A stretch of 64,000 nucleotides of DNA from Deltaproteobacteria bacterium (GCA_022340905.1 JAJDNB010000014.1:1227-65226), one strand, 5' to 3'. Shown: positions 4,490 through 62,600, counted from the first letter of the stretch. A program made the numbers and translations. Notes: generated from the letters alone by a model not told the origin.

Positions 4490-5030
4490 AACGCAGCATA
4501 GGGCACAATTCAGCAGACAGCTTGCAGCTGACAGCAGGCAGTCAGCGCTGCGCGTCATTTGCCTTCGGCGTCATTAGGTCACTACGCTGCGCTGTCATTG
4601 GTTGTAAAAGGTAGGATCAGGTTTCAGGTGTCAGGTGTCACATGACATTAGAAGCTCACGGCTCATAGCTCACAGAAGTTGGTCAATCGGTCGATTGGTC
4701 AAAAGGTTAATTCGTAGAAATCGTAGAAGGCGTAGAAGGTAAGCGGTCAATTACTTGCCCATTTGACCAATTTCCTATTCGACTAATTGACTAAACGTTA
4801 GGGATTGTGGATTGCGGATTTAAAATCAAGGAGACAGGAGACAGGGGTCGGAGGTCAGAGGTCGGAGGTCAGAGGACAGCAAGACAAATCGTCAAAAGGT
4901 CAAATGGTTAATTCGTAGAAACCGTAGAAGTCGTAGAAGGTAAATGGTGAACGGTCAATTACTTGCCTATTTGACCAAGTTCCTATTCGACTATTTGACT
5001 AATTTCCTAATTGACCGGCTACTGGATTAT
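4490..5030. repeat. Mosaic intergenic repeat block between pdxS and glgP
   Basis: A roughly 100-bp unit (ggtcaaa-ggttaattcgtagaaa-cgtagaag...cggtcaattacttgcc-atttgaccaa-ttcctattcgacta-ttgactaa) is internally duplicated around a core gggattgtggattgcggatttaaaatcaaggagacaggagacag-ggtcggaggtcagagg...gacagcaagacaaatcgtc. The block also contains the gcgtcatttgccttcggcgtcatta element at 4509..4615. Confidence 0.6.
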
Positions 5031-7679: not shown

Positions 7680-8010
7680 CATGGGGCATGGGGAAGAGAT
7701 TTCGAATTTCGAATTGCGGATTGGGAATTTAAAATCAAGGAGACAGCCCTTCGACCCATTCGACAAGCTCAGAGCTGGCAAGCTCAGGACAGGTAGGGCA
7801 TAGAGCATAGAGCATAGGGCATAGGGTCGGCCGACAGACGACAGAGGACAGACGACAGCAAGCAGAACTCAGAGGTCAGATATCAGAGGTCTGAGGTCAG
7901 GTATAAAGCTGATCTCTGATCTCCGACTTCTGACCTCTGCGATAAACGGTTTCCACGATTTGAACGATTTTAACGGTTTGAACGGTTTCAACGAATCACC
8001 GTTTACCTCA
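7680..8010. repeat. Mosaic intergenic repeat block
   Basis: Word runs include ttcgaatttcgaattgcggattgggaatttaaaatcaaggagacag, ccattcgac, catagagcatagagcatagggcatagggtc, gacagacgacagaggacagacgacagcaag, ggtcagat-tcagaggtctgaggtcagg with its inverted complement tctgatctccgacttctgacctctg, and gaacggtttcaacga. Confidence 0.6.
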
Positions 8011-12631: not shown

Positions 12632-13165
12632 TTACGGTGTAACTTCGAAATCGAGACTCTTCAGGACCTTGCCGTCTGCGTCCAGTACATCCACACGCCA
12701 GGCACCAAGTTCATGTGCCTGAATGATCTTTGAGCTGAAGGTTCGCCAGCTGGCTGCATTCACCGCCAGCTCCACTCTGGCCCGCTCCGTCCCGTCAAAG
12801 TACCACACATGGGTTACATGTGTCGGAGACTCGGCACCCATGATTTGGGTGAAACAGTATAGTTTGCCCACATCGACCGTGAAACTGTTGCCGGAGTCCA
12901 CAGGTTCCCGATCCACCACATCTTTACAGATAGCTGCCACAGAAACCGTTAGCTCTGGGGCCATCTGCTCCTGCATTGCAGGTTCTTGCATCTCCCCAGT
13001 GGGTTGCTCTGACTTCATGGCGGGTTCTTGCATCTGGCCTGTGGGTTGTTCTGCCTTCATGGCAGGTTCTTGCATCTGGCCACTAGACTCCTGGGCCTGA
13101 CACACACCGTACAAACCGATAAACATGACTGCCAGGATTAAAACGGGAATAATTAGCTTCTTCAT
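12632..13165 (-). CDS. Secreted protein with three 15-aa tandem repeats and a C-terminal DUF2914-like domain
   Basis: Has a signal peptide. Three repeats of QMQEPAMK(A/S)EQPTG follow, then a conserved C-terminal domain (HVWYFDG...AW). The DUF2914 assignment is tentative. Confidence 0.6.
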   Translation of the reverse strand: MKKLIIPVLILAVMFIGLYGVCQAQESSGQMQEPAMKAEQPTGQMQEPAMKSEQPTGEMQEPAMQEQMAPELTVSVAAICKDVVDREPVDSGNSFTVDVGKLYCFTQIMGAESPTHVTHVWYFDGTERARVELAVNAASWRTFSSKIIQAHELGAWRVDVLDADGKVLKSLDFEVTP

Positions 13166-26880: not shown

Positions 26881-27165
26881 CCTTGTGAGCCGCATCGTTC
26901 CACTTTGGGTCTGGTTTTGGCACCTTGGCGGCTAGTCCAGGTTGCCGTGACAGTCATTGAGCCAGTTCTCTCGCGTCACTCTCAATGCTATGTTTGTCGA
27001 CTCCGCTGCGGAGACCTAATAACACCCTCCTACTACAATGAATAGGCCGTTGTTGGCTGACGAGCCTTTCACGTACCATAGATAAGAAGTCCATGTCAAA
27101 TAGCAATTCGGAAAGATCCTCCCAATTCTGCCCGCTGAGTTCCATTCCACAGGGTAATAGGAAAA

Positions 27166-30894: not shown

Positions 30895-30990
30895 TGACCT
30901 GTGGGATTTAGCATGGGGCATAGAGCATAGGGCATAGAGTAAAAAACCTATTTCGCAATTTTAAATCTCGCATCTCAGATCTCACATCTC
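30895..30990. repeat. Left arm of an inverted repeat flanking scpA
   Basis: The sequence gcatggggcatagagcatagggcatagagtaaaaaacctatttcgcaattttaaatctcgcatctcagatctcacatctcg has its reverse complement at 31815..31900, near-perfect over about 70 bp. A third related copy lies at 44870..44975. Confidence 0.7.
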
Positions 30991-31799: not shown

Positions 31800-31915
31800 C
31801 TAAACTTATGTGTGATCTGAGATCTGAGATTTAAAATTGCGAAATAGGTTTTTTACTCTATGCCCTATGCTCTATGCCCCATGCTAAATCTCACATCTCA
31901 GATCACAGATCGGTT
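31800..31915. repeat. Right arm of the inverted repeat flanking scpA
   Basis: The sequence tgtgatctgagatctgagatttaaaattgcgaaataggttttttactctatgccctatgctctatgccccatgctaaatctcacatctcagatcacagatcg is the reverse complement of 30901..30985. Confidence 0.7.
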
Positions 31916-31957: not shown

Positions 31958-34597
31958 TCAGCTCTGACCTGCCTGCAAAAAATGCTGCTGAACAAACTCC
32001 ACCTCCTCTTCTCTGCTCGACAGCTCCCCATTCAGTCGGCCGTCCAGAAGTTGATTGAGGATCCGGCGGTAGACAGGTCCAGGTGTAATGCCCATATCCT
32101 TCAAGTCTTTACCGCGCAGTTTTGGCCGCACTTCTTTCAGATCGCGGAAATAGTGACTTATAGCACGTCGGGTTTCTTCCTGCTGGGATTTCGCCATTAT
32201 GAACAGTAACCACTCCGTACTGACGCTTTCCAATAGGTGGTAAATGTCGCTGGCTTTGAGGTCAGGTTTTCGGTAGAACACTTTGCCGACAGAAATAGCA
32301 TTTTCCCTCCCCTCTCCCAGCAAGCTTGCGAGGCGGGGCGGAAACTCCATCCTAACAATGAAATTTTCAAGCTCTGGGGGGGCCAAAGGATCAAGGAGAG
32401 CCAAAAGGTAAACCAGCCACCTGTCACAACCGTTTTTGATAAAGCTGAGATCGTACCAGGCAAGCACTGAGCCGATCTCTCTCAAAAGCCGCTCGACGGG
32501 AGGCCCGTAATGGATGTCAGGATGGAGAAAAGGCAACAGGTTATATTCATTCATTCTCTTGATCGCAGGAATGGGATCCTCCTCGCTGAGTATATACTTG
32601 AGCTCGTTTGTGAGTCGCCTGCCGCTCAACTCCACAAGCAGTTTCATCTTCACGGCGTTCTCAATCAAATTGGAGGTATGTTTCATAATGCGAAAACCCA
32701 AGCGTTGCTCATAACGGATCGCCCGGAGAACCCGCGTGGGATCCTCCACAAAGCTGTAATTGTGAAGAACCCTGATGGCCTTATCCTTGAAATCCCTCTG
32801 CGCTCCAAAATAATCTATCAGCTGACCGAACCTATCTGGATTCAACTCCACCGCCAGGGTGTTTATAGTGAAATCCCGTCGGTAAAGATCCAGTTTTAGA
32901 GAGCTCAGTTCAACTGTGGGCAAAGCCGCAGGGTATTCGTAATACTCCAGCCGGGCTGTGGCCACATCAATTTTGAAGCCGTCCGGAAAGATCACTACCG
33001 CCGTGCCGAACTTCTTATACGATCTCACCCGGGCATCATAGCTTTGAGCAAAATCCTTGGCAAAGACAATTCCGTCGCCTTCCACCACAATATCAATGTC
33101 CAGGTTGGGACGTCGCAACATGAGGTCGCGGATGAAACCTCCCACTGCGTAAGCTCTGTAATCATGCTTTGCGGCAACCCTTCCAGCTTCCTGCAATATT
33201 TCGTTTATCTGGCGGGGCAACTGTTCTCTCATTACATTAGAGACATTTTTGCGCCGTTTTTTCTCTGTCTGCTGGACCGGTTCGTAGACGTAGGTGGGAA
33301 TACGACTCGGATCGTGTAAAAGCGTGTTGAGCAGATCCTTGCGGGTAATAACTCCAACCACCTTACGATCCTCCACCACGGGAAGCAATCGCTGCTGCAG
33401 ATCCACCAAGTGCTCCTGAATTTCAATCAAAGAAGCATTAGGGGATACGCTAGTGAATTCTGTCCCCATGAACTCACTTACAGCCACGTTCTTGAAACCG
33501 TGATATATGCCTTTGTCTATCATTTGACGGGATAGTATGCCCACCAAGCGTTCCCCGTCCAGCACCGGAGCAGCGTTGATGTTGTAACGCGTTAGCAGGT
33601 CAGCGGCCTCTTGCAAGCTAAGGCTGGGTGATACGGAGATGACCGGGGACGACATCAGGTTTTTCGCCCTTTGCTTAGGATTAATCCAGCTCTGGAGAAT
33701 TCGAAAAAGTTCTTCCTCAACCTGGATCAGGGTGAGGTCTTTTATGGTTGCCGAGGCAGCACTGGAGTGGCCACCTCCGCCAAAGACCGCAGCGATCTCT
33801 CCCACGTTAACTTCAGGCAACCGGCTACGCGCCACCATGTATATACGATCTTCCATTCGGGCAAGGGCAAAGAGAACATTGAGGTTTTCCATGTCCATAA
33901 GCTTATGAACCAGTAGGGCAAAATCGCCGATGTACTTATCCACGGAAGCCCGGGCCATGCAAACGGGGATGGTGTTGATAGTGTGCGATGTGGCCGAGTG
34001 GATCAGATCATTTAGAAGCGAAATTTGCTCTGCTGTCAACTCACGAGTGAGCATATCAGATACCAAATTAAGATTTGCTCCCTGGGTGAGAAGAAAGCGG
34101 GCGGCTTCGTAGTCCTCTGGAGTAGTGGATGAAAAGGTAAATGAACCGGTATCTTCGTAAATACCCAAGGTGAGGATGGTGGCCTCATCGGGGGTGAGCT
34201 GAATGCCACGCTCCCTGATGAGTTCGGTGAGGATGGTAACCGTAGCCCCGACCGGCTTTACCACCTCAATGGATCCAGAGACATCATCTTCAGAATCGGG
34301 GTGATGATCATATATGTGGATGTCGACTTTTTTCTCTTTTACCGCCTTTTCGAATTTACCGATACGTCCCGCCTGTCTGGTATCGACCAGAATGAGACGG
34401 CTAATTTTAGTGAATTCCACATCTCTTATTTTGGCAAAATCAAAAAAGTAGAAAGTGGATTCCACCAAAAACTCTCGGAGGTTGTGTTCCTGCGAGCCTG
34501 GAAACACCATGACTGCCTCTGGATACAGTTTTTTTGCGGCAATCATGGACGCCATGGCGTCGAAGTCGGCATTTATGTGAGTGGTTATGATTTCCAC
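31958..34597 (-). CDS. Multidomain DHH/DHHA1 phosphoesterase - CBS pair - polyA-polymerase/CCA-adding tRNA nucleotidyltransferase fusion
   Basis: The N-terminus has DHH (THINADFDAMASMIAA) and DHHA1 (GGGGHSSAASAT) domains. A central CBS pair follows, then a nucleotidyltransferase head (AYAVGGFIRDLMLRRPNLDIDIVVEGDG) and a C-terminal HD-like region. Length is 879 aa. Confidence 0.8.
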   Translation of the reverse strand: MEIITTHINADFDAMASMIAAKKLYPEAVMVFPGSQEHNLREFLVESTFYFFDFAKIRDVEFTKISRLILVDTRQAGRIGKFEKAVKEKKVDIHIYDHHPDSEDDVSGSIEVVKPVGATVTILTELIRERGIQLTPDEATILTLGIYEDTGSFTFSSTTPEDYEAARFLLTQGANLNLVSDMLTRELTAEQISLLNDLIHSATSHTINTIPVCMARASVDKYIGDFALLVHKLMDMENLNVLFALARMEDRIYMVARSRLPEVNVGEIAAVFGGGGHSSAASATIKDLTLIQVEEELFRILQSWINPKQRAKNLMSSPVISVSPSLSLQEAADLLTRYNINAAPVLDGERLVGILSRQMIDKGIYHGFKNVAVSEFMGTEFTSVSPNASLIEIQEHLVDLQQRLLPVVEDRKVVGVITRKDLLNTLLHDPSRIPTYVYEPVQQTEKKRRKNVSNVMREQLPRQINEILQEAGRVAAKHDYRAYAVGGFIRDLMLRRPNLDIDIVVEGDGIVFAKDFAQSYDARVRSYKKFGTAVVIFPDGFKIDVATARLEYYEYPAALPTVELSSLKLDLYRRDFTINTLAVELNPDRFGQLIDYFGAQRDFKDKAIRVLHNYSFVEDPTRVLRAIRYEQRLGFRIMKHTSNLIENAVKMKLLVELSGRRLTNELKYILSEEDPIPAIKRMNEYNLLPFLHPDIHYGPPVERLLREIGSVLAWYDLSFIKNGCDRWLVYLLALLDPLAPPELENFIVRMEFPPRLASLLGEGRENAISVGKVFYRKPDLKASDIYHLLESVSTEWLLFIMAKSQQEETRRAISHYFRDLKEVRPKLRGKDLKDMGITPGPVYRRILNQLLDGRLNGELSSREEEVEFVQQHFLQAGQS

Positions 34598-34604
34598 CAG
34601 TTCA

Positions 34605-34800
34605 GCTCTTATTGTTTAACTAAGCATAGGGCATAGCGATAAAATTTCGAAATTCGAATTTCGAAATTCGAAATTAAAAATCCCCAATCCTCAATCCCAA
34701 ATCCCATCTTCTCCCTATTACAACAAATGGCAGCGAAGCGTAATGACCTAATGACGCCGAAGGCAAGTGACCTGCAGCGCTAGCTGCTCTACGCCCGCGG
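34605..34800. repeat. Mosaic intergenic repeat block including an inverted copy of the gcgtcatttgccttcggcgtcatta element
   Basis: Contains catagggcatagcg, aaatttcgaaattcgaatttcgaaattcgaaattaaaaatccccaatcctcaatcccaaatccc, then gcagcgaagcgtaatgacctaatgacgccgaaggcaagtgacctgcagcgc. That last run is the reverse complement of 4545..4612 and 47371..47430, and it overlaps the xerD stop. Confidence 0.6.
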
Positions 34801-35703
34801 GTGGTACTTCCTGTGCACCTCTCTCAGTCTCTCCCTGGCCACATGAGTGTAGATCTGCGTGGTGCTGATGTCGGCGTGTCCGAGCATCATTTGCACTGAA
34901 CGCAAATCGGCCCCACGCTCGAGGAGATGGGTGGCAAAAGAGTGCCTCAAGCTATGGGGGGTCAGATCTTTATTGAGACCAGCTTCACGTCCATATTTTT
35001 TGATTAACTTCCAAAACCCCTGCCTGGTCATTGACGTTCCTCGATTGGTCACAAAAAGGATCTCAGTCATCCTTCCTTTTAATAAGCGAGGGCGGGACTC
35101 CAACACATAGCGCCGCACGGCCTCCGTAGCGGCCTCACCCGCTGGAACGATGCGTTCTTTGGATCCTTTTCCCAGCACAACCAGAAAACCGACCTCGAGG
35201 TTGACCCTCCCCAACGTGAGGCTGACCAACTCTGAAACTCGCAGTCCGGTTCCGTAGAGAAGCTCGAGCATGGCAGCGTCTCTCTGACCCAACGGCAATC
35301 TGGTGTCGGGGCGAACCAGAAGTCGTTCTACTTCAGCAACACTCAACACAGACGGAAGCTGGCGCCGGAGTCGGGGAGAGGTTAAGTTTGCCACCGGACT
35401 CTCTTTCAGGTGGCTGTCCCGTACCATAAATTTAAAAAAGCCACGGAGGGCCGAAAGTAGTCTCGCCCTGCTTCTAGGGGCCAAACCCTCTTTCTGGGCG
35501 TGGGAAAGGAAACCCATGATCTCGGAGTAACCAACCTGACTCCAACTACTCATCCCCTGCTCTCTGAGGTAATTCATAAATTTTAGCAAATCAGCACTGT
35601 AGGAGGCTCGGGTATTAGAGGCAAGACCTTTTTCTACGGTGAGGTAGTCCAAGTAAAGATCAAGCTGGGTATCCATGGTCATTGGTTGTTCCGCAGTCAA
35701 CAT
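34789..35703 (-). CDS. xerD: Tyrosine recombinase XerD/XerC (chromosome dimer resolution)
   Basis: Phage-integrase fold with the catalytic block HSLRHSFATHLLERGADLRSVQMMLGHADISTTQIYTHV. Co-located with scpAB. Confidence 0.88.
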   Translation of the reverse strand: MLTAEQPMTMDTQLDLYLDYLTVEKGLASNTRASYSADLLKFMNYLREQGMSSWSQVGYSEIMGFLSHAQKEGLAPRSRARLLSALRGFFKFMVRDSHLKESPVANLTSPRLRRQLPSVLSVAEVERLLVRPDTRLPLGQRDAAMLELLYGTGLRVSELVSLTLGRVNLEVGFLVVLGKGSKERIVPAGEAATEAVRRYVLESRPRLLKGRMTEILFVTNRGTSMTRQGFWKLIKKYGREAGLNKDLTPHSLRHSFATHLLERGADLRSVQMMLGHADISTTQIYTHVARERLREVHRKYHPRA

Positions 35704-35819
35704 ATTTTGTGAAGGGGAAGTTTCTGTTTACCCTCACATAATTCTATTTTTCCTAAAATCGTCGAGAACATAGCAAATGGACCTTGCAGAGTCAACTGCT
35801 AACGGGTCTCGCAACAAGC

Positions 35820-36000
35820 GGTTCGAGGGAGAGAAGGCTCTGGTCAATTGGTCGATCTGTCAAATGGTCAAAAGGTTAAATGGTTAATTCGTAGAAATCG
35901 TAGAAATCGTTAAAACCGTTGAAATCGTTCAAGTCGTGAATGGTAGATAATAAACGGTCAATTACTTGCCTATTTGACCAATTCCCTATTTGACTACTTG
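35820..36000. repeat. Mosaic intergenic repeat block
   Basis: Contains ggtcaattggtcgatctgtcaaatggtcaaaaggttaaatggttaattcgtagaaatcgtagaaatcgttaaaaccgttgaaatcgttcaagtcgtgaatgg...cggtcaattacttgcctatttgaccaattccctatttgactacttgacgacttgac. Confidence 0.6.
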
Positions 36001-36014
36001 ACGACTTGACTTGC

Positions 36015-36183
36015 TGTCCTCTGTCCTCTGTCATCTGTCGTCTGTCATCTGTCATCTGTCATCTGTCGTCTGCCATCTGTCGTCTGTCATCTGTCATCTG
36101 TCATCTGTCATCTGTCATCTGTCGTCTGTCATCTGTCGTCTGTCATCTGTCGTCTGTCATCTGTCCTCTGTCATCTGACCTCT
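36015..36183. repeat. Microsatellite: about 21 tandem copies of the 8-mer gtc(a/g/c)tctg
   Basis: gtcctctgtcctctgtcatctgtcgtctgtcatctgtcatctgtcatctgtcgtctgccatctgtcg... located in the divergent xerD/nrnA intergenic region. Track ORF 36006..36209 (SSVICRLSSVICHL...) is its translation. Confidence 0.85.
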
Positions 36184-36312
36184 GGCCTCCATGCCCCATG
36201 CTAACATAGGAAAAATGCGCTTGACCTGGGCCCTCGCTTATGGCACTGTTGAGTAGTTGTCGACACAATCTTCAACTTGCTGATATATTTAGAAAAATAG
36301 AGAGACTACGAC

Positions 36313-37335
36313 ATGGCCGTCAACAATCCGCGACTCCGCTCCGCAAAACCTCGATCTATCAGCGAAAACCTCAACAAGCTCTTGAAACTCTTTGATTCCA
36401 AAGACCGTGTTCTCATTACTATTGATGCCGACCCTGACTCTTTGGCATCCGCCATGGCCCTAAAACGGCTCCTGTGGCGCAAAGCTCAATCAGTCACCAT
36501 TGCTCACTTCAATGAAATTGTTCGGTTCGACAACGCCACTATGGTTCGGCTTTTAAAGATCCCTTTGGTCAAGCTTCAACAGGTTGATCCCAAAGATTTC
36601 TCCAAAGTCCTTCTTGTCGATAGCCAACCCCACCATCATGAGGCCTTCGGTGATTTTACTTACGACGGCGTCATAGATCACCATCCCGTAACCATGCCTG
36701 TGGAAGCTGAATTTGTGGACATCCGGCCCAACTACGGCGCGACCGCCAGCATAATGACCGAATATTTGCGTTCTGCCAAAATTCGCCCATCCAAGAGTCT
36801 TGCCACCGCCCTTCTTTATGCCATCCGGGTGGACACTCACAATTTTGAGTTACAGGCATTGGAAGAGGACGTGAAGGCCTTTCGCTATATTTTCCCCTTG
36901 GCCAACATGAACTTGCTGCGGAAAATAGAGATGTCCGATATGGGGATCAAAGATCTTAGATATTTCCAGCAGGCTTTGGATAACAAGCGGATTACAAAAG
37001 GCAAGATCTTCTCCCATCTCGACACTGTTCACTCAACAGATATCCTCGTATTGGTTGCGGATTTTTTTATGAGATGTCACGAGGTGGCCTGGACAATAGT
37101 TTCAGGAGTTTGCAACAAAAACCTGGTGGTGGTGATACGCAACGATGGGTTTAGAAAAAACGCCGGAAACTGGGCGATTAAGGCCTTCGGCAAGCTGGGA
37201 AGTGCCGGTGGTCATCGGGCCATGGCTCGCGCTGAAATCCCTATGGCCAATCTCGATTCCCACCTCACTAAAGCCGAGGTTTCTAATCTCGGCCGCTTTG
37301 TAATCCGCCAGTTTAAGAAGAGCGTTGAGAGCTAG
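36313..37335 (+). CDS. nrnA: DHH-family phosphoesterase NrnA (bifunctional oligoribonuclease / pAp phosphatase)
   Basis: Has DHH motifs (ITIDADPDSLASAMAL; DHHP) and a DHHA1 C-terminus (GSAGGHRAMA). Length is 340 aa. Confidence 0.8.
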   Translation: MAVNNPRLRSAKPRSISENLNKLLKLFDSKDRVLITIDADPDSLASAMALKRLLWRKAQSVTIAHFNEIVRFDNATMVRLLKIPLVKLQQVDPKDFSKVLLVDSQPHHHEAFGDFTYDGVIDHHPVTMPVEAEFVDIRPNYGATASIMTEYLRSAKIRPSKSLATALLYAIRVDTHNFELQALEEDVKAFRYIFPLANMNLLRKIEMSDMGIKDLRYFQQALDNKRITKGKIFSHLDTVHSTDILVLVADFFMRCHEVAWTIVSGVCNKNLVVVIRNDGFRKNAGNWAIKAFGKLGSAGGHRAMARAEIPMANLDSHLTKAEVSNLGRFVIRQFKKSVES

Positions 37336-37396: not shown

Positions 37397-37645
37397 TTAG
37401 TTTTTTTCCCTGTTTGCTTGGTTGGTCAAACCCGCAGCTATTTTTTCGGTGTGATACATCATCTCTTGAATATGCTTGTCCTTTTTCTCTAGCCGCTGCT
37501 TGAGAGTTCGATTTTCTTGCCGTAATTTAGTGGCTTCCGACCTGGCAAAGAAGCCGCGAATCTTTCCATAGATCAGTGTTCCAACCACCCCGACAACGGC
37601 TCCCAGAGCAGTACCTATCCAAAAATAGAAGCTGGGATTTTCCAC
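37397..37645 (-). CDS. Small membrane-anchored coiled-coil protein (hypothetical)
   Basis: A single N-terminal TM (FYFWIGTALGAVVGVVGTLIYG) precedes a charged coiled-coil tail. Length is 82 aa. Confidence 0.45.
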   Translation of the reverse strand: MENPSFYFWIGTALGAVVGVVGTLIYGKIRGFFARSEATKLRQENRTLKQRLEKKDKHIQEMMYHTEKIAAGLTNQANREKN

Positions 37646-39464: not shown

Positions 39465-39467
39465 GAA

Positions 39468-39700
39468 ATTGGTCGATTGGTCAATTGGGAAATTAGGCAA
39501 ATCGTTATTTCGTCATCGTGGCATTCATAACCATTTGACTATTTGACATATTGACGATTTGACTTGCTGTTGTCTGACGTCTGACCTCTGACCTTTGGGC
39601 TGGACGACTTCTACGATTTCTACGACCTGCTGAATTCTCTAATTCCCTAATTCTCATTTGTCCTCCGGACTCGGGTCCGGAAGGTGGGGTCGCTTGACAT
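39468..39700. repeat. Conserved roughly 100-bp intergenic element (plus-orientation copy) with flanking mosaic
   Basis: ggtcgattggtcaattgggaaattaggcaaatcgttatttcgtcatcgtggcattcataaccatttgactatttgacatattgacgatttgacttgctgt, followed by tgtctgacgtctgacctctgacc and cgacttctacgatttctacgac. Near-identical copies are at 57137..57240 and 47584..47645. A reverse-complement copy is at 21984..22080. Confidence 0.7.
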
Positions 39701-39754
39701 CATGCCTCCCTTGGCTTATAAGCGATAATCCTACACCGCCACTAGGAAAGGAAA

Positions 39755-41482: not shown

Positions 41483-41650
41483 GAGGTCAGCAGTAAGCGG
41501 TAAACGGTACAAGATGTTATTCGTTATTTGTCATACGTTATCCCTTATACGTTACTCGGAAAACATCAGCCTATAACTCGCTGTCGTCTGTCATCTGGTC
41601 CGACGATTCCTACGAACTAACCTTTTGACCATTTGACCAATCGACTAATT
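41480..41650. repeat. Mosaic intergenic repeat block
   Basis: Contains ggtcagcagtaagcggtaaacgg, ttattcgttatttgtcatacgttatcccttatacgttac, ctgtcgtctgtcatctggtccgacgattcctacgaactaaccttttgaccatttgaccaatcgactaattgac. Confidence 0.55.
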
Positions 41651-44859: not shown

Positions 44860-45250
44860 CAAAGGGCTAATCTGAGATATGAGATACGAGATGCGAGATT
44901 TAGCATTGCGAAATAGGTTTTTACTCTATGCCCCATGCTCCATGCTAAATCTCACATCTCTGATCACACGTCAGTCGCCAAGGAGTTCGATGCTACTTGT
45001 GCCTGGACTATGCCCCAATTGTTGTGGGCAAGTCAAGAGAAGGACTGGATGCTGGATGCTGGATGCTTGATGCCGGCAAAGCTCTGGCAGACAGAGACAT
45101 CTACCCTGCTGGATGCCGGGGCAGACAAGAAGTGTATCATGCGAGAAAGGATACTCGCCCGAGATGCTTAATTCCCTTTCTCGCATTTCTCGCCCTTAAC
45201 GCTATGCGCCATGGGCTATGCTCAATGCGCAGGAGGCCATACTTCTGCGT
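44860..45250. repeat. Mosaic intergenic repeat block
   Basis: Carries a third copy of the scpA-flanking element (gagatgcgagatttagcattgcgaaataggtttttactctatgccccatgctccatgctaaatctcacatctc). It also contains ggatgctggatgctggatgcttgatgccgg and a partial gcgagaaagg element (ccctttctcgcatttctcgccc...gctatgcgccatgggctatgc). Confidence 0.6.
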
Positions 45251-46429: not shown

Positions 46430-47346
46430 GCCCCAGGGTAAAGGTGAAAACCCCTGACAAGTCCGCTCCAACTGTTGGTGCCCTTTTGATGCTGGCTGCC
46501 GCCTTACTCTTCGCGGTCCTCGACGGTCTCATCAAGCTTCTCGGCCCACCGTTCCGGGTGTGGGATATAGCCTTCTACCGATTCGCCTGCGGTCTGGCTG
46601 TTTTACTGCCTATTTTAGGCTGGAAGGGTAATCCATTCTCGGGTCATAATCGAAGGCTATTAGTAGTCAGGGGAATAACCGGGTGCTGTGCTTTCTTGGC
46701 ACTCGTTGCAGCCATTCGTCTAATTCCAATTTCCACCGCCCTAGTCCTTTTTTTTTCTTTTCCCGCTTTCGCCGCCTTTTTCTCGCCTCTGATCTTTAAG
46801 GAGGCCATTTCCCGAGATGAAATTTTGTTTGTCCTTGCTGCTTTAGCCGGAGTAGCCGTTCTCTTCGATTTTAGTCTGCACTCGGCTCTTTTGGGGCAAG
46901 CATTGGCTGTCTTGGGCGGCAGTTTCGCAGGCCTGACCATCTCTATTATCAAAAAGTTGAGGGAGACAAACGGTTCGGCAGTAATCTATCTTTACTTCTG
47001 CCTCCTTGGTGCCGGTATCTCATTGCCGCCATTTATTGCCAACCCGCAGGTTCCCAGCGTTCCGGTGGAATGGCTCATGCTCGGTGGGATTGTCTTCTCG
47101 GCCTTGGCCGCCCAACTCCTGATGAATCAGGGATTTCACTATTGCAAGAGCTGGGAGGGCGGCCTTTTCCTCATGGCTGAAGTAGTCTTCACTTCAACGC
47201 TCGGCATACTCCTTCTCGGTGAACCGGTGACTTGGCGTTTTTGGGTGGGAGGGGCTATGGTTCTCGGCAGTGCTGTGGCTCTCAACCGAGGCAATGCCAG
47301 AAGGATTTCCTACCGGGGCGTGGGGCACAATTCAGCAGGCAGCTGA
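46426..47346 (+). CDS. DMT superfamily transporter (EamA family, 10 TM)
   Basis: Two EamA repeats, polytopic hydrophobic. Length is 306 aa. Confidence 0.8.
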   Translation: MSPRVKVKTPDKSAPTVGALLMLAAALLFAVLDGLIKLLGPPFRVWDIAFYRFACGLAVLLPILGWKGNPFSGHNRRLLVVRGITGCCAFLALVAAIRLIPISTALVLFFSFPAFAAFFSPLIFKEAISRDEILFVLAALAGVAVLFDFSLHSALLGQALAVLGGSFAGLTISIIKKLRETNGSAVIYLYFCLLGAGISLPPFIANPQVPSVPVEWLMLGGIVFSALAAQLLMNQGFHYCKSWEGGLFLMAEVVFTSTLGILLLGEPVTWRFWVGGAMVLGSAVALNRGNARRISYRGVGHNSAGS

Positions 47347-47680
47347 CAGCGGGCAGCAGGCAGATAGCACTAAGCGTCATTTGCCTTCGGCGTCATTAAG
47401 TCACTACGCTGCGCTGTCATTTATTGTAAAAGGAGGAAGCCCAAGGTCAGAGGTCAGAGGAGAGATTGCGGATTTCGGATTGTGGATTGCGGATTTAAAA
47501 TCAAGGAGACAGGAGACAGAAGTCAGAGATCAGAGGACAGCAAGTCAAATCGTCAATATGTCAAATAGTCAAATGGTTAAATGGTCAATTGGGAAATTAG
47601 GCAAATCGTTATTTCGTCATCGTGGCATTCATAACCATTTGACTAGTTATCTAATTGACTGGCTACCGGATTTTTTGATT
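47340..47680. repeat. Mosaic intergenic repeat block with copies of three conserved elements
   Basis: At 47341..47430 it carries the gcgtcatttgccttcggcgtcattaagtcactacgctgcgctgtcatt element. It then has ggtcagaggtcagagg, gattgcggatttcggattgtggattgcggatttaaaatcaaggagacaggagacag, and gacagcaagtcaaatcgtcaatatgtcaaatagtcaaatgg. It ends with the roughly 100-bp element core ggtcaattgggaaattaggcaaatcgttatttcgtcatcgtggcattcataaccatttgact. Confidence 0.65.
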
Positions 47681-57039: not shown

Positions 57040-57265
57040 AGTGGTCAGATGGTTAAATCTTCAAACGGTGAGCGGCAAGCAGTAAGCATTTAGTTAATTA
57101 GGACATTAGAAAATTAGGGAATTAGGGCATTAGTCAAATGGTCGATTGGTCAATTGGGAAATTAGGCAAATCGTTAATTCGTCATCGTGGCCATTCATAA
57201 CCATTTGACTATTTGACATATTGACGATTTGACTTGCTGTCGTCTGTCCTCTGTTGTCTGTCTCT
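57040..57265. repeat. Mosaic intergenic repeat block containing a copy of the roughly 100-bp conserved element
   Basis: Contains ggtcagatggttaaatcttcaaacggtgagcggcaagcagtaagc, ttaggacattagaaaattagggaattagggcattag, and the core element at 57137..57240. It ends with gtcgtctgtcctctgttgtctgtc. Confidence 0.65.
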
Positions 57266-58158: not shown

Positions 58159-58603
58159 GAGAATTTCAATTGACTTTATCTGAGCTACCGCCTCTTCGAA
58201 CCGCAGAATATCGAAGTAATCACTTCATCATTCTGCGGTTCCTTGTTCTGCTGTTCGATATTCAGTACTTTAGACCATCTTTGCCCGTCTCGCCCGACAT
58301 CCCTTCTCGCTGTACTCTATGCCCTGAGCTTTTGAGAGTCACAATGGCTGCCACATCTTTCCAGATTGAGAATTCACGGTCAAATAATTTTTGCCGGGCC
58401 TAGCCCGGATCTTTCATGAATGGGTGTAACAAGAATAAACCCTGGCAGACTTATGGAAAAGGTTATTTTCAACTCTCTTTTTCCGTGTCTTGACAGAAGG
58501 CCAAGAGGACGGATATTTTTAGGTGAGGACAGCATGCAATCCAGGGAAGCTCACCTACCGTTCACAGCATCTTTTACTGAGACAGTGTAACTAAGAGGTA
58601 TCG

Positions 58604-60544: not shown

Positions 60545-61060
60545 GTGTCTGTGGCTGTATCTGTCTCCAGGTATGTCAAGAAGATTGTCCAGTTCTTTGA
60601 AAATCTGGAGACATGGTTGTTTGTAATTATCTTGGGCTCCCTTGCCGCTTTCGCCGTCTTGCAAATCATTTTGCGGAATTTCTTCTCAACCGGGCTGGTC
60701 TGGGGTGATGACCTTTTGAGACACGGGGTACTCTGGATTAGCGTCTTGGGGGCATCCCGCGCCACCCTCGAGAGGAAGCACATCAGGATTGACCTTCTGC
60801 CCAGGGTCATGCCGGCCCGGATAGGCTTCATTTCAGACTTTATCTGCTGTTTCGTTTCCTTCCTTGTGTGTGTCGTTCTCTTTTGGGCCTCCTGGAACTT
60901 TGTCCGGGGAGAACGGCTCGCCGGGGATGTTGCCTTTGCCTCAATTCCCTACTGGTGTCTTGAACTAATCTTTCCTATTGGTTTTGCGCTGATGGCACTC
61001 AGATTCGGCTTTCGCATTGCCGGCGGGCTGGCCGGCAAACAGGAGGGGGTGGAGACATGA
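60545..61060 (+). CDS. dctQ: TRAP transporter small permease (DctQ)
   Basis: A 171-aa, 4-TM DctQ-like protein. It overlaps dctM by 4 nt. Confidence 0.8.
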   Translation: MSVAVSVSRYVKKIVQFFENLETWLFVIILGSLAAFAVLQIILRNFFSTGLVWGDDLLRHGVLWISVLGASRATLERKHIRIDLLPRVMPARIGFISDFICCFVSFLVCVVLFWASWNFVRGERLAGDVAFASIPYWCLELIFPIGFALMALRFGFRIAGGLAGKQEGVET

Positions 61061-62319
61061 AAGCAACACTGCTCACCCTCCTTTTTATACTGATAGCATT
61101 TTCCGGCGCTCCCCTCTTCGTGGTCATCTCTGCCGCCGCCTTATTTTGTTTCTACTTCATTGGGGTGGACCTCTCCGTTGTCATCATCGAAATGTACCGG
61201 TTGGCTGCCAATCCCCTGCTCATTGCTTTATTGTTTTTTGCCTTCGCTGGATATGTCTTGGCAGAAAGTGCTGCCGGTCAAAGGCTGGTTAAGCTATCCT
61301 CTGCAATCTTCGGCTGCGTCCGCGGCGGTCTTGCACTGGTTTCCTTACTCTCCTGCGCTTTTTTCACTGCCCTTACCGGCGCCTCAGGGATCACCATTGT
61401 CGCCCTGGGAGGGTTGCTTCTGCCTGCCCTTTTGCAAGAAAAATATGCAGAAGACTTCTCTTTAGGATTGCTTACCAGCTCGGGAAGCCTCGGTCTCCTC
61501 TTTCCTCCCAGTTTACCAATGATTATCTATGGTGTTGTCGCTGGGGTCAGTATTCCTAAACTTTTCCTTGCCGGACTTATACCGGGTATATTTTTGCTGG
61601 TCTTGCTTGGCGGATACAGCATCTATAAGGGCGTCCGCGGTGACTGCACGGTGTTGACCTTTGATTTTAAAAAACTCTTGGACACTGTTCGGGAGACAAT
61701 TTGGGAAATATTGCTTCCCGTGGTGGTGTTTGGCGGGATATACAGCGGGTTTCTTGCAGTTAGCGAGGCTGCAGTGGTTACCCTGGTTTATGTACTTGTG
61801 GTCGCACTTGCCATCAATCGCGACGTGAAGCTTCGCCAGGTGCCCACAATTGTTGGCAACACCGTGGTCATGGTTGGGAGCATCATCATCATTCTCGGCG
61901 CCGCCCTCGCCTTCAACAGTTTCTTGATTGATCAACAAATACCCAGCAGGATTCTCCTTTGGATCCAGAGTCAGGTACAGAGTAAATTCTTTTTCTTGAT
62001 TATCCTAAACGTATTCCTGCTGCTGGTGGGCTGCTTTCTCGATGTTTATTCTGCCCTAGTAGTCGTTGCACCACTTGTCATCCCTATTGCCCAAGGTTAC
62101 GACCTCAATTTATTCCATCTGGGTATTATTTTCCTAACCAACCTGCAGATCGGTTATACTACCCCACCTGTGGGAATGAACCTATTCATTGCCAGCCTAC
62201 GGTTCGAAAAGTCCGTAATCCGACTGGGTATTGCTTCCCTGCCTTTTCTGGGTATTCTCCTTGTGGCCCTCGCTATAATCACCTATGTTCCCGCCTTGAG
62301 CCTTCTTCTTGTCAGGTAA
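61057..62319 (+). CDS. dctM: TRAP transporter large permease (DctM)
   Basis: A 420-aa, roughly 12-TM DctM-family protein. Confidence 0.85.
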   Translation: MKATLLTLLFILIAFSGAPLFVVISAAALFCFYFIGVDLSVVIIEMYRLAANPLLIALLFFAFAGYVLAESAAGQRLVKLSSAIFGCVRGGLALVSLLSCAFFTALTGASGITIVALGGLLLPALLQEKYAEDFSLGLLTSSGSLGLLFPPSLPMIIYGVVAGVSIPKLFLAGLIPGIFLLVLLGGYSIYKGVRGDCTVLTFDFKKLLDTVRETIWEILLPVVVFGGIYSGFLAVSEAAVVTLVYVLVVALAINRDVKLRQVPTIVGNTVVMVGSIIIILGAALAFNSFLIDQQIPSRILLWIQSQVQSKFFFLIILNVFLLLVGCFLDVYSALVVVAPLVIPIAQGYDLNLFHLGIIFLTNLQIGYTTPPVGMNLFIASLRFEKSVIRLGIASLPFLGILLVALAIITYVPALSLLLVR

Positions 62320-62334
62320 GCTCACTTCGACAGA

Positions 62335-62600
62335 TACTTCATGGAGGTTAGAGGTCAGAGGTCAGAGGTCAGATGACAGCAGGTAGAACTCAGAGGTCAG
62401 ACATCAGAGATCAGAGGTCAGAATTCAGATTAGAGATGACAGACGATAGCAAGCGGCGTCCTTATCCGTTATTGGTTATTCGTTATTCGGGAGTTTTGCT
62501 CCTGTGAGCTTTGAGCCGTGAGCTGTGAGCTGAATTGACGGTTTCTACGAATTCTACGAATCAACCTTTTGACCATTTGACCGGAGCGTTATCGCTGCTT
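62335..62600. repeat. Mosaic intergenic repeat block
   Basis: Contains ggaggttagaggtcagaggtcagaggtcagatgacagcaggtagaactcagaggtcagacatcagagatcagaggtcagaattcagattagagatgacagacgatagcaagc, ccgttattggttattcgttattcgg, gtgagctttgagccgtgagctgtgagctg, and ctacgaattctacgaatcaaccttttgaccatttgacc. Confidence 0.6.

What the first reader, a model, noticed from the sequence alone, without database searches (positions are those of the whole stretch)
36015..36183. A 170-bp microsatellite of about 21 copies of the 8-mer gtcNtctg sits in the xerD/nrnA divergent promoter region
Long perfect or near-perfect short tandem repeats are rare in bacterial intergenic DNA. When they sit in promoters they can act as contingency loci, varying spacing or expression by slipped-strand mispairing. 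This one lies between the divergently transcribed xerD and nrnA genes. The same 8-mer word is also a building block of the dispersed mosaics, for example at 41581 and 57241.
Basis: seen in the sequence. Interest (0 to 1): 0.55.

Follow-up and report, generated by a model that had tools for sequence, protein, structure and literature searches.

The report
Expanded seven-base repeat between two genes
A 175-base run of about 25 copies of the seven-base word CTGTCNT lies between the xerD gene and a DHH-family gene of an uncultured deltaproteobacterium; its copy number differs between near-identical strains, but it sits outside both conserved promoters, so it looks like an overgrown member of this lineage's many small intergenic repeats and not a dedicated genetic switch.

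Summary
It has period 7 (CTGTCNT), not 8. It holds 25 in-register units at 36014-36188 (TRF 23.4 copies, score 258; the pattern hits 43 times in the window against 0.01 expected).

It is the terminal module of a dispersed, partly palindromic mosaic of short tandem words. Such mosaics occupy 22 of the window's 42 intergenic spacers and are also dense in related MAGs. The same module has 3-7 units at 14 other places in the window.

Across 29 orthologous xerD/DHH loci, two conserved promoter blocks flank a stretch that varies from 61 to 424 bp. The array lies wholly inside that stretch.

Strains compared by DHH-gene DNA identity:
- 99.7%: the same array with two extra 14-bp double units.
- 98.2%: only 3 units.
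- 97.9-98.5% (five contigs): an unrelated palindromic element in its place.

It is dispensable and not embedded in a promoter, which argues against a contingency switch. The best explanation is slipped-strand expansion of a heptanucleotide simple repeat. This kind is already known from cyanobacteria, Beggiatoaceae, Xanthomonas and Geobacter metallireducens. I rate it a new member of a known kind, of moderate to low interest.

The parts
36014..36174 (+). Core of the heptanucleotide array: 23 units of CTGTCNT (13 CAT, 6 CGT, 3 CCT, 1 CTGCCAT). All but one difference fall at unit position 6. Runs of alternating units (CGT CAT x3) point to duplication of 14-bp double units.
   Evidence: TRF period 7, 23.4 copies, score 258
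36175..36188 (+). Two terminal units, CTGACCT and CTGGCCT. The same CTGACCT-CTGGCYC junction next to the CYATGCY module is present in L003, a different species with 82% DNA identity, so this end of the array is old.
36189..36202 (+). CCATGCC CCATGCT: a second heptamer module (CYATGCY)n. It keeps its position next to the DHH promoter block in L002, L003, L004, L008, L034 and L037, with 2-5 units.
35977..36013 (+). TTGAC-word module (tatttgaccaattccctatttgactacttgacgacttgacttg). The junction ...GACGAYTTGACTTG|CTGTC is shared by six places in the window, where it is followed by only 3-7 heptamers.
   Evidence: (alignment A1)
35841..35976 (+). Left part of the mosaic: (TGGTCAAA) x5.5, (AAATGGTT) x3, a 9-mer (TCGTAGAAA / AAATCGTTG) x6.8, and a unique core. 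With 35973-36002 it forms an imperfect palindrome (arms 35843-35872 / 35973-36002, 70% complementary; folding z = -2.3). The heptamer array is outside this palindrome.
35704..35812 (-). Conserved xerD-proximal block holding the candidate xerD promoter: -35 TTGACT 35795-35790, 17-nt spacer, TG-extended -10 TATGTT 35772-35767. The motifs GAGAACATAGCARATG and GTCAAC were found in 29 orthologous loci.
36203..36312 (+). Conserved DHH-proximal block: invariant AAATG..CTTGACCT (TTGACC 36221-36226), TGGCAC, the 8-bp palindrome TGTCGACA 36258-36265, the candidate promoter (-35 TCGACA 36260-36265, 18-nt spacer, TG-extended -10 TATATT 36284-36289), the invariant GATAT, and the ribosome-binding region GAGAGA.
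34789..35703 (-). xerD, a tyrosine recombinase. The longest ORF starts at 35703. Orthologues suggest the real start is the ATG at 35682.
36313..37335 (+). DHH-family phosphoesterase (340 aa), identical to NCBI MCG6979969.1 from a 'Deltaproteobacteria bacterium' MAG. It is NrnA-like only at COG level.

Best explanation
The feature is a heptanucleotide simple-sequence repeat, (CTGTCNT)25. It arose by slipped-strand expansion of a module that is normally 3-7 units long. That module is the terminal part of a dispersed, partly palindromic mosaic of 7-9-nt tandem words, and such mosaics fill a large share of the intergenic DNA of this uncultured deltaproteobacterial (Desulfobacterota / Syntrophobacteria-like) lineage.

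The array sits in a dispensable, fast-changing stretch between two conserved divergent promoter blocks (xerD and a DHH-family gene). There it can grow and shrink in steps of 7 or 14 bp without touching either promoter.

Shown:
- period, unit count and boundaries of the array;
- membership in a window-wide word family;
- copy-number and presence/absence differences between strains of 97.9-99.7% identity;
- conserved promoter blocks outside the array;
- no single-strand structure.

Inferred:
- that replication slippage is the mechanism (loops of 7 or 14 nt are too large for MutS, which is established knowledge and was not tested here);
- that the expansion is neutral or nearly so;
- that the predicted promoters are the ones actually used.
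For: 1. Anatomy. Period 7, 25 in-register units. Variation is confined to one unit position and shows 14-bp higher-order runs.

2. It is one module of a family. Six loci in the window share the junction GACGAYTTGACTTG|CTGTC. Fourteen other CTGNCNT arrays have 3-7 units and the same order, CTGTCNT units then CTGACCT units.

3. The habit is genome-wide and lineage-wide.
- Short arrays cover 17% of non-coding DNA against 0.6% of coding DNA.
- They occur in 22 of 42 spacers of all orientations.
- 55 of 93 arrays have period 7.
- Relatives carry 20-50 array bases per kb; distant loci carry 0-7.
- 8 of 27 and 8 of 31 canonical heptamer words in relatives are shared with the window; none of 5 is shared by the distant group.

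4. Modules slip in place. The mosaic after rnd (39465-39754) is orthologous in L024 (93% identity), and each module has a different copy number there.

5. This array varies.
- L001 (99.7%): two extra 14-bp double units.
- L037 (98.2%): 3 units.
- L022, L034, L036, L038, L039 (97.9-98.5%): a different element and no array.

6. Promoters are outside. Conserved blocks flank a variable stretch of 61-424 bp in 29 loci; the window's is the longest.

7. No structure and no known RNA. The DNA fold gives z = +1.5, and Rfam finds nothing there.

8. Precedent in the literature.
- Heptanucleotides are the commonest long simple repeats in many prokaryotes, and polymerase slippage has been proposed (Mrazek 2007, as summarised in PMC4679880).
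- GGGNATC repeats have 2-26 units with a mode of 4 (PMC4692102).
- TAACTGA arrays reach 43 copies (PMC4679880).
- Geobacter metallireducens has tandem heptanucleotide multicopy elements (PMC2700814).
Against: - No reads were available, so heterogeneity within one population and the exact copy number in the source genome are unverified.
- Promoters are consensus predictions supported by conservation, not mapped transcription starts.
- Five of the seven unit positions are near-invariant across independent arrays, and the word vocabulary is shared between genomes. Both could reflect recognition by a protein and not only common descent plus slippage.
- The array ends only 32 bp upstream of the invariant TTGACC, so an effect on an upstream promoter region cannot be excluded.
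- Why this one copy grew to 25 units while 14 others stayed at 3-7 is unexplained.
Confidence: 0.75

Rival explanations
1. It is a contingency (phase- or rheostat-variable) locus. Changes in unit number alter the spacing or supercoiling coupling between the divergent xerD and DHH promoters, or the DNA just upstream of the DHH -35, and so tune expression.
For: - Copy number differs between near-identical strains.
- The array lies between divergent genes and ends 32 bp from the invariant TTGACC.
- Promoter-upstream heptad repeats of variable number do modulate ctxAB in Vibrio cholerae.
- Heptamer repeats affected recO and recF reporter activity in Nostoc.
Against: - Both predicted promoters lie in conserved blocks outside the array.
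- The intervening stretch ranges from 61 to 424 bp with unrelated content, and five strains at about 98% identity have no array.
- The same word family sits in convergent spacers that lack promoters.
- The flanking genes are housekeeping-type, not surface or restriction-modification genes.
- Steps of 7 bp rotate the helix face by about 240 degrees, so there is no simple on/off phasing.
Confidence: 0.1
2. It is an array of binding sites for a lineage-specific DNA-binding or nucleoid-associated protein: one protein per heptamer, with every third unit on the same helix face. Under this reading the mosaics act as nucleoid-organising or insulating elements, and the expansion adds binding capacity.
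For: - Unit positions 1, 2, 3, 5 and 7 are near-invariant across 66 units in 14 independent arrays.
- The heptamer vocabulary is shared with genomes whose arrays lie at other positions.
- Similar paired tandem heptamer sites in Geobacter metallireducens (for example MTYCTGA x5, close to CTGACYT here) were proposed, without a test, as IHF/HU or global-regulator sites.
- H-NS and ToxT occupy the TTTTGAT heptads at ctxAB.
Against: - No candidate protein was identified.
- Word conservation is equally explained by spread of a common element followed by slippage.
- Modules change copy number freely, and whole mosaics are replaced between close strains.
- The two arms of a palindromic mosaic do not keep matching copy numbers.
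Confidence: 0.1
3. It is an assembly artefact. The long array, or its exact length, comes from mis-assembly of short metagenomic reads in a repeat-rich genome.
For: - The source is a MAG contig.
- Related short-read contigs break in or next to this array (L001 starts inside it; L021 and L035 end about 85 bp before the DHH start codon).
- The first 29 nt of L037 are identical to window 58239-58267, so chimeric joins at repeats are possible.
Against: - An independent assembly from another sample (L001) carries at least 18 units joined to the same unique right flank, within one k-mer length (k = 141), so the array exists in reads.
- The pattern of unit variants is aperiodic enough to give unique long k-mers.
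- Only the exact count of 25 stays unverified.
Confidence: 0.04
4. It encodes a repeat peptide. ORFs at 36006-36209 (67 aa) and 36011-36178 (55 aa) read the heptamers in all three frames as (LSSVICH)n.
For: Open reading frames span the array on the + strand.
Against: - The ORFs use TTG starts and have no Shine-Dalgarno sequence.
- There is no Pfam match.
- Any 7-nt repeat free of stop codons gives such a frame.
- The sequence is absent from strains at 98% identity and lies upstream of both predicted promoters.
Confidence: 0.01

Closest known systems
Long simple sequence repeats with 5-11-nt units, especially heptanucleotides (Mrazek, Guo and Shah 2007, as summarised in MacGregor 2015, PMC4679880)
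   Same: Head-to-tail units of 7 nt, much longer than chance allows, mostly intergenic, and abundant only in scattered lineages. Slippage is the proposed origin. This window shows the same predominance of period 7.
   Different: The lineage (uncultured Deltaproteobacteria / Desulfobacterota) and the word CTGTCNT are not among those described. Here the arrays are also strung together into recurrent mosaics with palindromic arms.
Cyanobacterial STRR sequences and Nostoc heptamer repeats (Mazel et al. 1990, from my own knowledge; Pradhan et al. 2022 preprint)
   Same: Families of tandem heptamers dispersed through intergenic DNA, with a word vocabulary shared across related genomes and no settled function. 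STRR2 (TTGGTCA, recalled from memory) resembles the TTGGTCAA module here.
   Different: A different phylum and different words. STRR membership is defined by cyanobacterial sequences. No transcript or reporter data exist for this lineage.
GGGNATC heptamer repeats of Xanthomonas and Nostoc (Rehm et al. 2015, PMC4692102)
   Same: Genome-wide intergenic heptamer arrays, usually about 4 units with rare expansions to 26. That is the same length distribution as here: 3-7 units usual, 25 in this copy.
   Different: Those repeats are G-rich and form G-quadruplexes. CTGTCNT has no G tracts and shows no single-strand structure.
TAACTGA direct repeats of marine Beggiatoaceae, cyanobacteria and Bacteroidetes (MacGregor 2015, PMC4679880)
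   Same: Intergenic heptamer arrays, mostly 2-6 copies with occasional arrays of up to 43. Related genomes have shorter spacers that lack the repeats.
   Different: TAACTGA arrays in the Maribeggiatoa genome lie within a few nucleotides of start codons, which suggests translational control. Here the array is upstream of both promoters, and the family occurs in spacers of every orientation.
Multicopy intergenic elements of Geobacter metallireducens built from tandem heptanucleotides (Aklujkar et al. 2009, PMC2700814)
   Same: A deltaproteobacterium with many intergenic multicopy sequences. These include paired inverted sites of 3-5 tandem 7-9-mers (MTYCTGA x5, TCTCCGTS x3, GGGACCG x4). MTYCTGA is a rotation of CTGAMTY, close to CTGACYT here, and CACGGAGA-type units occur in L024.
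   Different: The Geobacter sites have fixed small copy numbers and were interpreted, without a test, as regulator or IHF/HU sites. No long expansion or strain variation was reported. Homology to the present mosaics was not tested.
Promoter simple-repeat contingency loci, and the ctxAB TTTTGAT heptad repeats of Vibrio cholerae (Naha et al. 2021 preprint; examples reviewed in PMC4679880)
   Same: A tandem repeat near a promoter whose unit number differs between strains.
   Different: In those systems the repeat lies within the promoter, the activator/H-NS binding region or the 5' leader, and expression has been shown to depend on copy number. Here the repeat lies outside the conserved promoter blocks and is absent from close relatives.

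Membership tests
Heptanucleotide long simple sequence repeat (LSSR / STRR-like) | Head-to-tail tandem copies of a 5-11-nt unit with no spacers | tested here: met
   Period 7, 25 in-register units, no indels
Heptanucleotide long simple sequence repeat (LSSR / STRR-like) | Array longer than expected by chance in that genome | tested here: met
   43 matches to three consecutive units against 0.01 expected from shuffles
Heptanucleotide long simple sequence repeat (LSSR / STRR-like) | Part of a genome-wide, mainly intergenic population in which 7-nt units predominate | tested here: met
   17% of non-coding against 0.6% of coding bases; 55 of 93 arrays have period 7; relatives carry 20-50 array bases per kb
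Heptanucleotide long simple sequence repeat (LSSR / STRR-like) | Copy number polymorphic between related genomes (slippage) | tested here: met
   Window 25 units; L001 has two extra double units; L037 has 3 units. Modules of the rnd mosaic differ between the window and L024
Cyanobacterial STRR families proper | Cyanobacterial host and one of the defined STRR words | tested here: not met
   The host is a 'Deltaproteobacteria bacterium' MAG and its relatives are Desulfobacterota or Syntrophobacteria MAGs. The word CTGTCNT is not an STRR word (STRR words recalled from memory)
Promoter simple-repeat contingency locus (phase variation) | Hypermutable repeat with strain-to-strain differences in unit number | tested here: met
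Promoter simple-repeat contingency locus (phase variation) | Repeat lies between -35 and -10, in a regulator binding site, in the 5' leader or in the reading frame, so that unit changes alter expression | tested here: not met
   Predicted promoters and all conserved blocks lie outside the array, 219 bp and 32-72 bp away. The intervening stretch is 61-424 bp with unrelated content across 29 loci. The promoters are predictions, not mapped starts
Promoter simple-repeat contingency locus (phase variation) | Expression of the adjacent gene switches or scales with unit number | not testable with these tools
   No reads, transcriptomes or reporters were available
Promoter simple-repeat contingency locus (phase variation) | The repeat is a maintained feature of the locus in the population | tested here: not met
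   Five of eight informative contigs at 97.9% identity or more carry a different element and no array
Geobacter metallireducens-type paired tandem-heptamer multicopy elements | Multicopy intergenic sites of 3-5 tandem 7-9-mers, mostly as inverted pairs | tested here: inconclusive
   Other mosaics in the window have inverted pairs of the same word family (for example 7866-7900 against 7909-7939). The left part of this mosaic is an imperfect palindrome. The 25-unit array itself has no inverted partner. Sequence homology to the Geobacter elements was not tested; only their published consensus words were compared
NrnA (bifunctional oligoribonuclease / pAp phosphatase), for the neighbouring gene | Match to the NrnA equivalog model, with DHH plus DHHA1 domains | tested here: not met
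   No NrnA model hit at E <= 0.001. Only Pfam DHH was found (36.8 bits) and no DHHA1. The names given by sources are generic

The most novel reading that the evidence does not exclude
The mosaics are not just slippage debris. Under this reading they form a lineage-wide system: a limited vocabulary of 7-9-nt words (CTGNCNT, CYATGCY, TTGGTCAA, TCGTAGAAA, GGTGTCA and others) arranged in recurrent, partly palindromic orders. The words would either be read by a dedicated heptad-recognising protein or be propagated as a non-autonomous mobile element family whose arms grow by slippage. The xerD/DHH spacer would then be a hot spot where such elements replace one another, and the 25-unit array would be a runaway arm. 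This would be a deltaproteobacterial counterpart of the still unexplained cyanobacterial STRR sequences, and possibly related to the Geobacter metallireducens 'global regulator sites'.
Probability: 0.15. Interest if true: 0.65.

Novelty: new member of a known kind. Interest (0 to 1): 0.33.

Why it matters
On its own, the array is a good length-polymorphic marker for telling apart strains of an uncultured deltaproteobacterium. It also explains why short-read assemblies of this lineage break here: contigs L001, L021 and L035 end in or next to it.

More broadly, it shows that the dense heptamer-repeat habit known from cyanobacteria, Beggiatoaceae, Xanthomonas and Geobacter metallireducens also exists in this lineage. 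Here it takes a modular form that can be followed module by module between strains. That gives a natural system for measuring slippage rates of 7-nt units, and for asking whether the shared words are bound by a protein.

It does not provide evidence for a new regulatory switch at xerD.

Tried and rejected
- An 8-nt period was rejected. TRF and in-register reading give 7.
- A hairpin, terminator or RNA structure in the array was rejected. The DNA fold gives z = +1.5, no inverted partner exists, the terminator scan found none, and Rfam's only hit in the window is a SAM riboswitch elsewhere.
- A sigma-54 promoter at the conserved TGGCAC was considered by eye and rejected, because the -12 TTGC element is not at the right spacing.
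- A promoter running from the TTGACT words into the array was considered. The best -10 candidate, TGTCAT, lacks the key A at position 2 and the scan did not call it.
- A coding repeat peptide was rejected.
- A dif-like XerC/D recombination site next to xerD was considered and rejected by eye; the heptamer has no resemblance to dif (dif sequence recalled from memory).
- A scan of JGI metagenome contigs for the conserved DHH promoter word GGCACTGTKGARTAGTTGTCGACA found nothing. That collection evidently lacks the samples holding L022 and L024, so I did not run a second scan.
- An exact look-up of the window's XerD protein found no contig.
- Looking up the NCBI cluster member P0128 only returned L001 again.
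- Literature searches for tandem heptamers in Deltaproteobacteria by keyword combination found nothing. The Geobacter paper surfaced only through a search for 'heptanucleotide repeats'.

Full report
OBSERVATION

Window 36014-36188 holds a near-perfect tandem repeat. Tandem Repeats Finder reports 36014-36177, period 7, 23.4 copies, 89% matches, no indels, score 258 and consensus CTGTCAT. This is by far the strongest of its 125 rows for the window.

Read in register there are 25 units: 13 CTGTCAT, 6 CTGTCGT, 3 CTGTCCT, 1 CTGCCAT, then CTGACCT and CTGGCCT. These are followed by CCATGCC CCATGCT.

The last g belongs to the next unit, so the true description is a 7-mer in about 25 copies.

Three consecutive CTGNCNT units with at most one mismatch occur 43 times in the window, against 0.01 expected from dinucleotide shuffles.

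The flanks are as follows.
- On the left is xerD on the minus strand (TIGR02225, 373.5 bits against a cutoff of 329.6).
- On the right is a 340-aa DHH-family protein on the plus strand. It has a Pfam DHH domain only and no NrnA equivalog hit. Sources name it 'DHH family phosphoesterase' or the COG-level 'nanoRNase/pAp phosphatase'. 'nrnA' is therefore not established.
- The DHH protein is identical to NCBI MCG6979969.1 from a 'Deltaproteobacteria bacterium' MAG contig of 67,885 bp.

WHAT IT IS PART OF

The array is not an isolated oddity.
- Short tandem arrays of 6-9-nt units cover 2,491 of 14,715 non-coding bases (17%) but only 306 coding bases (0.6%).
- They occur in 22 of 42 intergenic spacers: 4 divergent, 4 convergent and 14 co-directional.
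- Period 7 predominates, in 55 of 93 arrays.

The arrays are strung into mosaics that use a limited vocabulary: CTGNCNT, CYATGCY, TTGGTCAA, TCGTAGAAA, CTAATTCC, GGATTGC and others.

In the xerD/DHH spacer the order is (TGGTCAAA)n, (AAATGGTT)n, a 9-mer array, a unique core, TTGAC-words, then (CTGTCNT)23, (CTGACCT, CTGGCCT) and (CCATGCY)2.

The part left of the heptamers is an imperfect palindrome, with arms at 35843-35872 and 35973-36002 (70% complementary; folding z = -2.3). The heptamer array has no inverted partner and is less structured than shuffled sequence (z = +1.5).

Six places in the window share the junction ...CCATTTGACTATTTGACATATTGACGATTTGACTTG|CTGTC... (alignment A1). Fourteen other CTGNCNT arrays have 3-7 units. 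They show the same order, CTGTCNT units before CTGACCT units, and the same two variable unit positions, 4 and 6.

The target is therefore a normal terminal module that has grown to 25 units. It is the longest short-unit array seen in the window or in about 240 kb of related DNA. The next longest are 79 bp at 62344-62422 and 69 bp in L009.

RELATIVES

A scan of species-representative genomes with the DHH protein found 19 loci, all in uncultured Deltaproteobacteria, Desulfobacterota or Syntrophobacteria-type MAGs. Most have the same divergent xerD/DHH arrangement.
- Relatives at about 80-89% protein identity carry 20-50 array bases per kb, again mostly period 7. More distant or paralogous loci carry 0-7.
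- Exact heptamer doublets run at 16-25 per 10 kb in the repeat-rich group, against 1.6 in the distant group.
- Of the canonical heptamer words in relatives, 8 of 27 and 8 of 31 are shared with the window. None of 5 in the distant group is shared.

The vocabulary is therefore a trait of the lineage, while positions and lengths are not.

PROMOTERS

The consensus scan places a xerD promoter at -35 TTGACT (35795-35790) and TG-extended -10 TATGTT (35772-35767). It places a DHH promoter at -35 TCGACA (36260-36265) and TG-extended -10 TATATT (36284-36289).

Both lie in blocks conserved across the orthologues.
- GAGAACATAGCARATG...GTCAAC, on the xerD side, was found in 29 loci.
- AAATG..CTTGACCT, TGGCAC and GATAT, on the DHH side, are invariant or nearly so in 17 aligned sequences.

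Between the blocks lies a stretch of 61 to 424 bp with unrelated content in different genomes. The window's stretch is the longest, and 175 bp of it is the array.

The array starts 219 bp from the xerD -35 and ends 32 bp before the invariant TTGACC (36221-36226). These promoters are predictions backed by conservation; no transcription start was mapped.

STRAIN ALLELES

Contigs carrying identical or near-identical DHH proteins gave eight informative alleles. Percentages are DNA identity of the DHH gene to the window.
- L001 (99.7%, another sample) starts inside the array. It shows at least 16 CTGTCNT units plus CTGACCT CTGGCCC joined to the same right flank. Against the window's right end it has two extra (CTGTCCT CTGTCAT) double units and one CGT/CAT difference. 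The contig extends less than one k-mer (141 nt) into the repeat, so this arrangement exists in reads.
- L037 (98.2%) has only CTGTCGT CTGTCCT CTGTCTT, followed by five CYATGCY units, next to the same promoter block.
- L022, L034, L036, L038 and L039 (97.9-98.5%) have no array. They carry a different palindromic element rich in GTCATT, which itself differs by one unit between contigs.
- L024-L033 (93%, ten samples) carry an inverted pair of (CATTTNN)n arrays that is identical in all ten.

The expanded array is therefore confined to the window's sublineage, is younger than about 2% sequence divergence, and already differs at 0.3% divergence.

The CTGACCT-CTGGCYC-(CYATGCY)n junction is older. It is present in L003 at 82% DNA identity.

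Elsewhere, the mosaic after rnd (39465-39754) is orthologous in L024, and each module has a different copy number there: AATTAGNN about 1.5 against 6, CTGNCNT 4 against 5, the 9-mer about 2.5 against 5, and CTAATTCN 3 against 4. By contrast, the spacer between the tRNA nucleotidyltransferase gene and xerD is wholly replaced.

Two processes are thus visible: slippage within modules, and replacement of whole elements.

MECHANISM

The most likely account is slipped-strand mispairing during replication of a 7-nt module. The runs CGT-CAT-CGT-CAT-CGT-CAT in the window and CCT-CAT-CCT-CAT-CCT-CAT in L001 are what duplication of 14-bp double units produces. The restriction of variation to one unit position fits amplification of variants already present in the short seed arrays (CTGTCGT, CTGTCCT and CTGTCAT occur at 57237, 41577 and 7831).

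Loops of 7 or 14 nt escape MutS-based mismatch repair. That is established knowledge and was not tested here. The array lies in DNA that is evidently free to vary.

I put this explanation at about 0.75.

The rivals are as follows.
- A rheostat or contingency role (0.10). This is weakened by the placement of the promoters, the dispensability of the array, and the presence of the word family in convergent spacers.
- A protein-binding array (0.10). It is kept alive by the near-invariance of five unit positions and the shared vocabulary, and by untested proposals for similar Geobacter elements.
- An assembly artefact (0.04). The existence of the array is confirmed independently; the exact count is not.
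- A repeat peptide (0.01).

COMPARISON WITH WHAT IS KNOWN

- Heptanucleotides are the commonest long simple repeats in many prokaryotic genomes, and polymerase slippage has been proposed as their origin (Mrazek et al. 2007, as summarised in PMC4679880).
- Families with a usual length of a few units and rare long expansions are documented. GGGNATC in Xanthomonas and Nostoc has 2-26 units with a mode of 4 (PMC4692102). TAACTGA in Beggiatoaceae, cyanobacteria and Bacteroidetes reaches 43 copies (PMC4679880).
- In Deltaproteobacteria, Geobacter metallireducens carries many intergenic multicopy elements, including paired inverted sites of tandem 7-9-mers (MTYCTGA x5, TCTCCGTS x3, GGGACCG x4; PMC2700814). 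The first two resemble words seen here (CTGACYT; CACGGAGA in L024). I compared only the published consensus words, not the sequences.
- Promoter heptads of variable number do regulate ctxAB, and heptamer repeats affected recO and recF reporters in Nostoc. In those cases the repeats overlap the promoter, the regulator region or the translation start.

The present array meets every defining feature of a heptanucleotide long simple repeat. It fails the positional and maintenance criteria of a promoter contingency locus.

VERDICT

This is a real, hypervariable 7-mer microsatellite. It is a new member of a known kind.

Interest is 0.33. Most of that comes from the lineage-wide modular mosaics and not from this one array.

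The main caveats are these.
- No reads were available.
- The promoters are not mapped experimentally.
- MAG and short-read contigs may contain errors at repeats. For example, the first 29 nt of L037 equal window 58239-58267.

Noticed in passing
window 26889-26991 (-): SAM riboswitch (RF00162), 45.2 bits against a gathering score of 44.4. It is the only Rfam family found in the window.
   Followed up: no
window 35743-35759 and 36285-36301: Both divergent genes carry the same motif in the same orientation relative to transcription, at or just after their predicted -10: ATTTTAGGAAAAATAGA on the xerD strand and ATATTTAGAAAAATAGA on the DHH strand (17 nt, 82% complementary as an inverted pair). Versions of it are conserved in orthologues. 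It may be a shared operator or initiation region for co-regulation.
   Followed up: partly
window 36258-36265 (and 36221-36252): The 8-bp palindrome TGTCGACA (TTGTCGACAA in L002-L005) overlaps the predicted DHH -35. Upstream of it, the invariant CTTGACCT and TGGCAC are conserved in all 17 aligned orthologues. These could be a second promoter or a regulator site. The spacing does not fit sigma-54.
   Followed up: partly
window 39465-39754; L024 6036-6409: The mosaic downstream of rnd is orthologous in a strain at 93% identity, but every tandem module has a different copy number. The left and right arms of the palindrome do not change in step.
   Followed up: yes
window about 4500-4612, about 47320-47432 (+), 34718-34788 (-); L022, L034, L036, L038, L039 spacers; L004, L020: A dispersed palindromic element of about 110-200 bp, rich in GTCATT words and flanked by CAGC-type heptamers. 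In five close strains it occupies the xerD/DHH spacer in place of the heptamer array, which suggests whole-element replacement or mobility.
   Followed up: partly
window 30910-30990 (-), 31814-31885 (+), 44874-44946 (+): Three copies of another composite element: (GAGATNT)n, a unique core (ttaaaattgcgaaataggtttttta), then (CTMTGCY)n.
   Followed up: no
window 62344-62449: The second-longest array in the window: (GAGGTCA) x11.3, the reverse complement of the CTGACCT word, right after the stop codon of the gene at 61057-62319.
   Followed up: no
window 12970-13082: A 42-bp (14-codon) tandem repeat, 2.7 copies, 84% matches, score 170, inside the ORF 12632-13165 (-). It is probably a repeat within a protein.
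   Followed up: no
L037 1-29 and window 58239-58267: The first 29 nt of L037 are 100% identical to a stretch in a different spacer of the window, next to an inverted repeat (58198-58250). This is either another dispersed element or a chimeric short-read contig joined at a repeat.
   Followed up: partly
window 37397-37645 (-): An 82-aa ORF downstream of the DHH gene is called in every strain contig examined and has no Pfam family. It is a conserved small protein of unknown function with a predicted N-terminal hydrophobic stretch.
   Followed up: no
window 31958-34597 (-): An 879-aa DHH-DHHA1-CBS-polyA-polymerase fusion matches the 'A-adding tRNA nucleotidyltransferase' equivalog end to end, but below its cutoff (1076.8 against 1440 bits).
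   Followed up: no
L001, L021, L035 contig ends: Short-read metagenome contigs of this species end inside the array or about 85 bp before the DHH start codon. Most contigs carrying this gene are under 4 kb. The mosaics appear to fragment assemblies of this lineage.
   Followed up: partly
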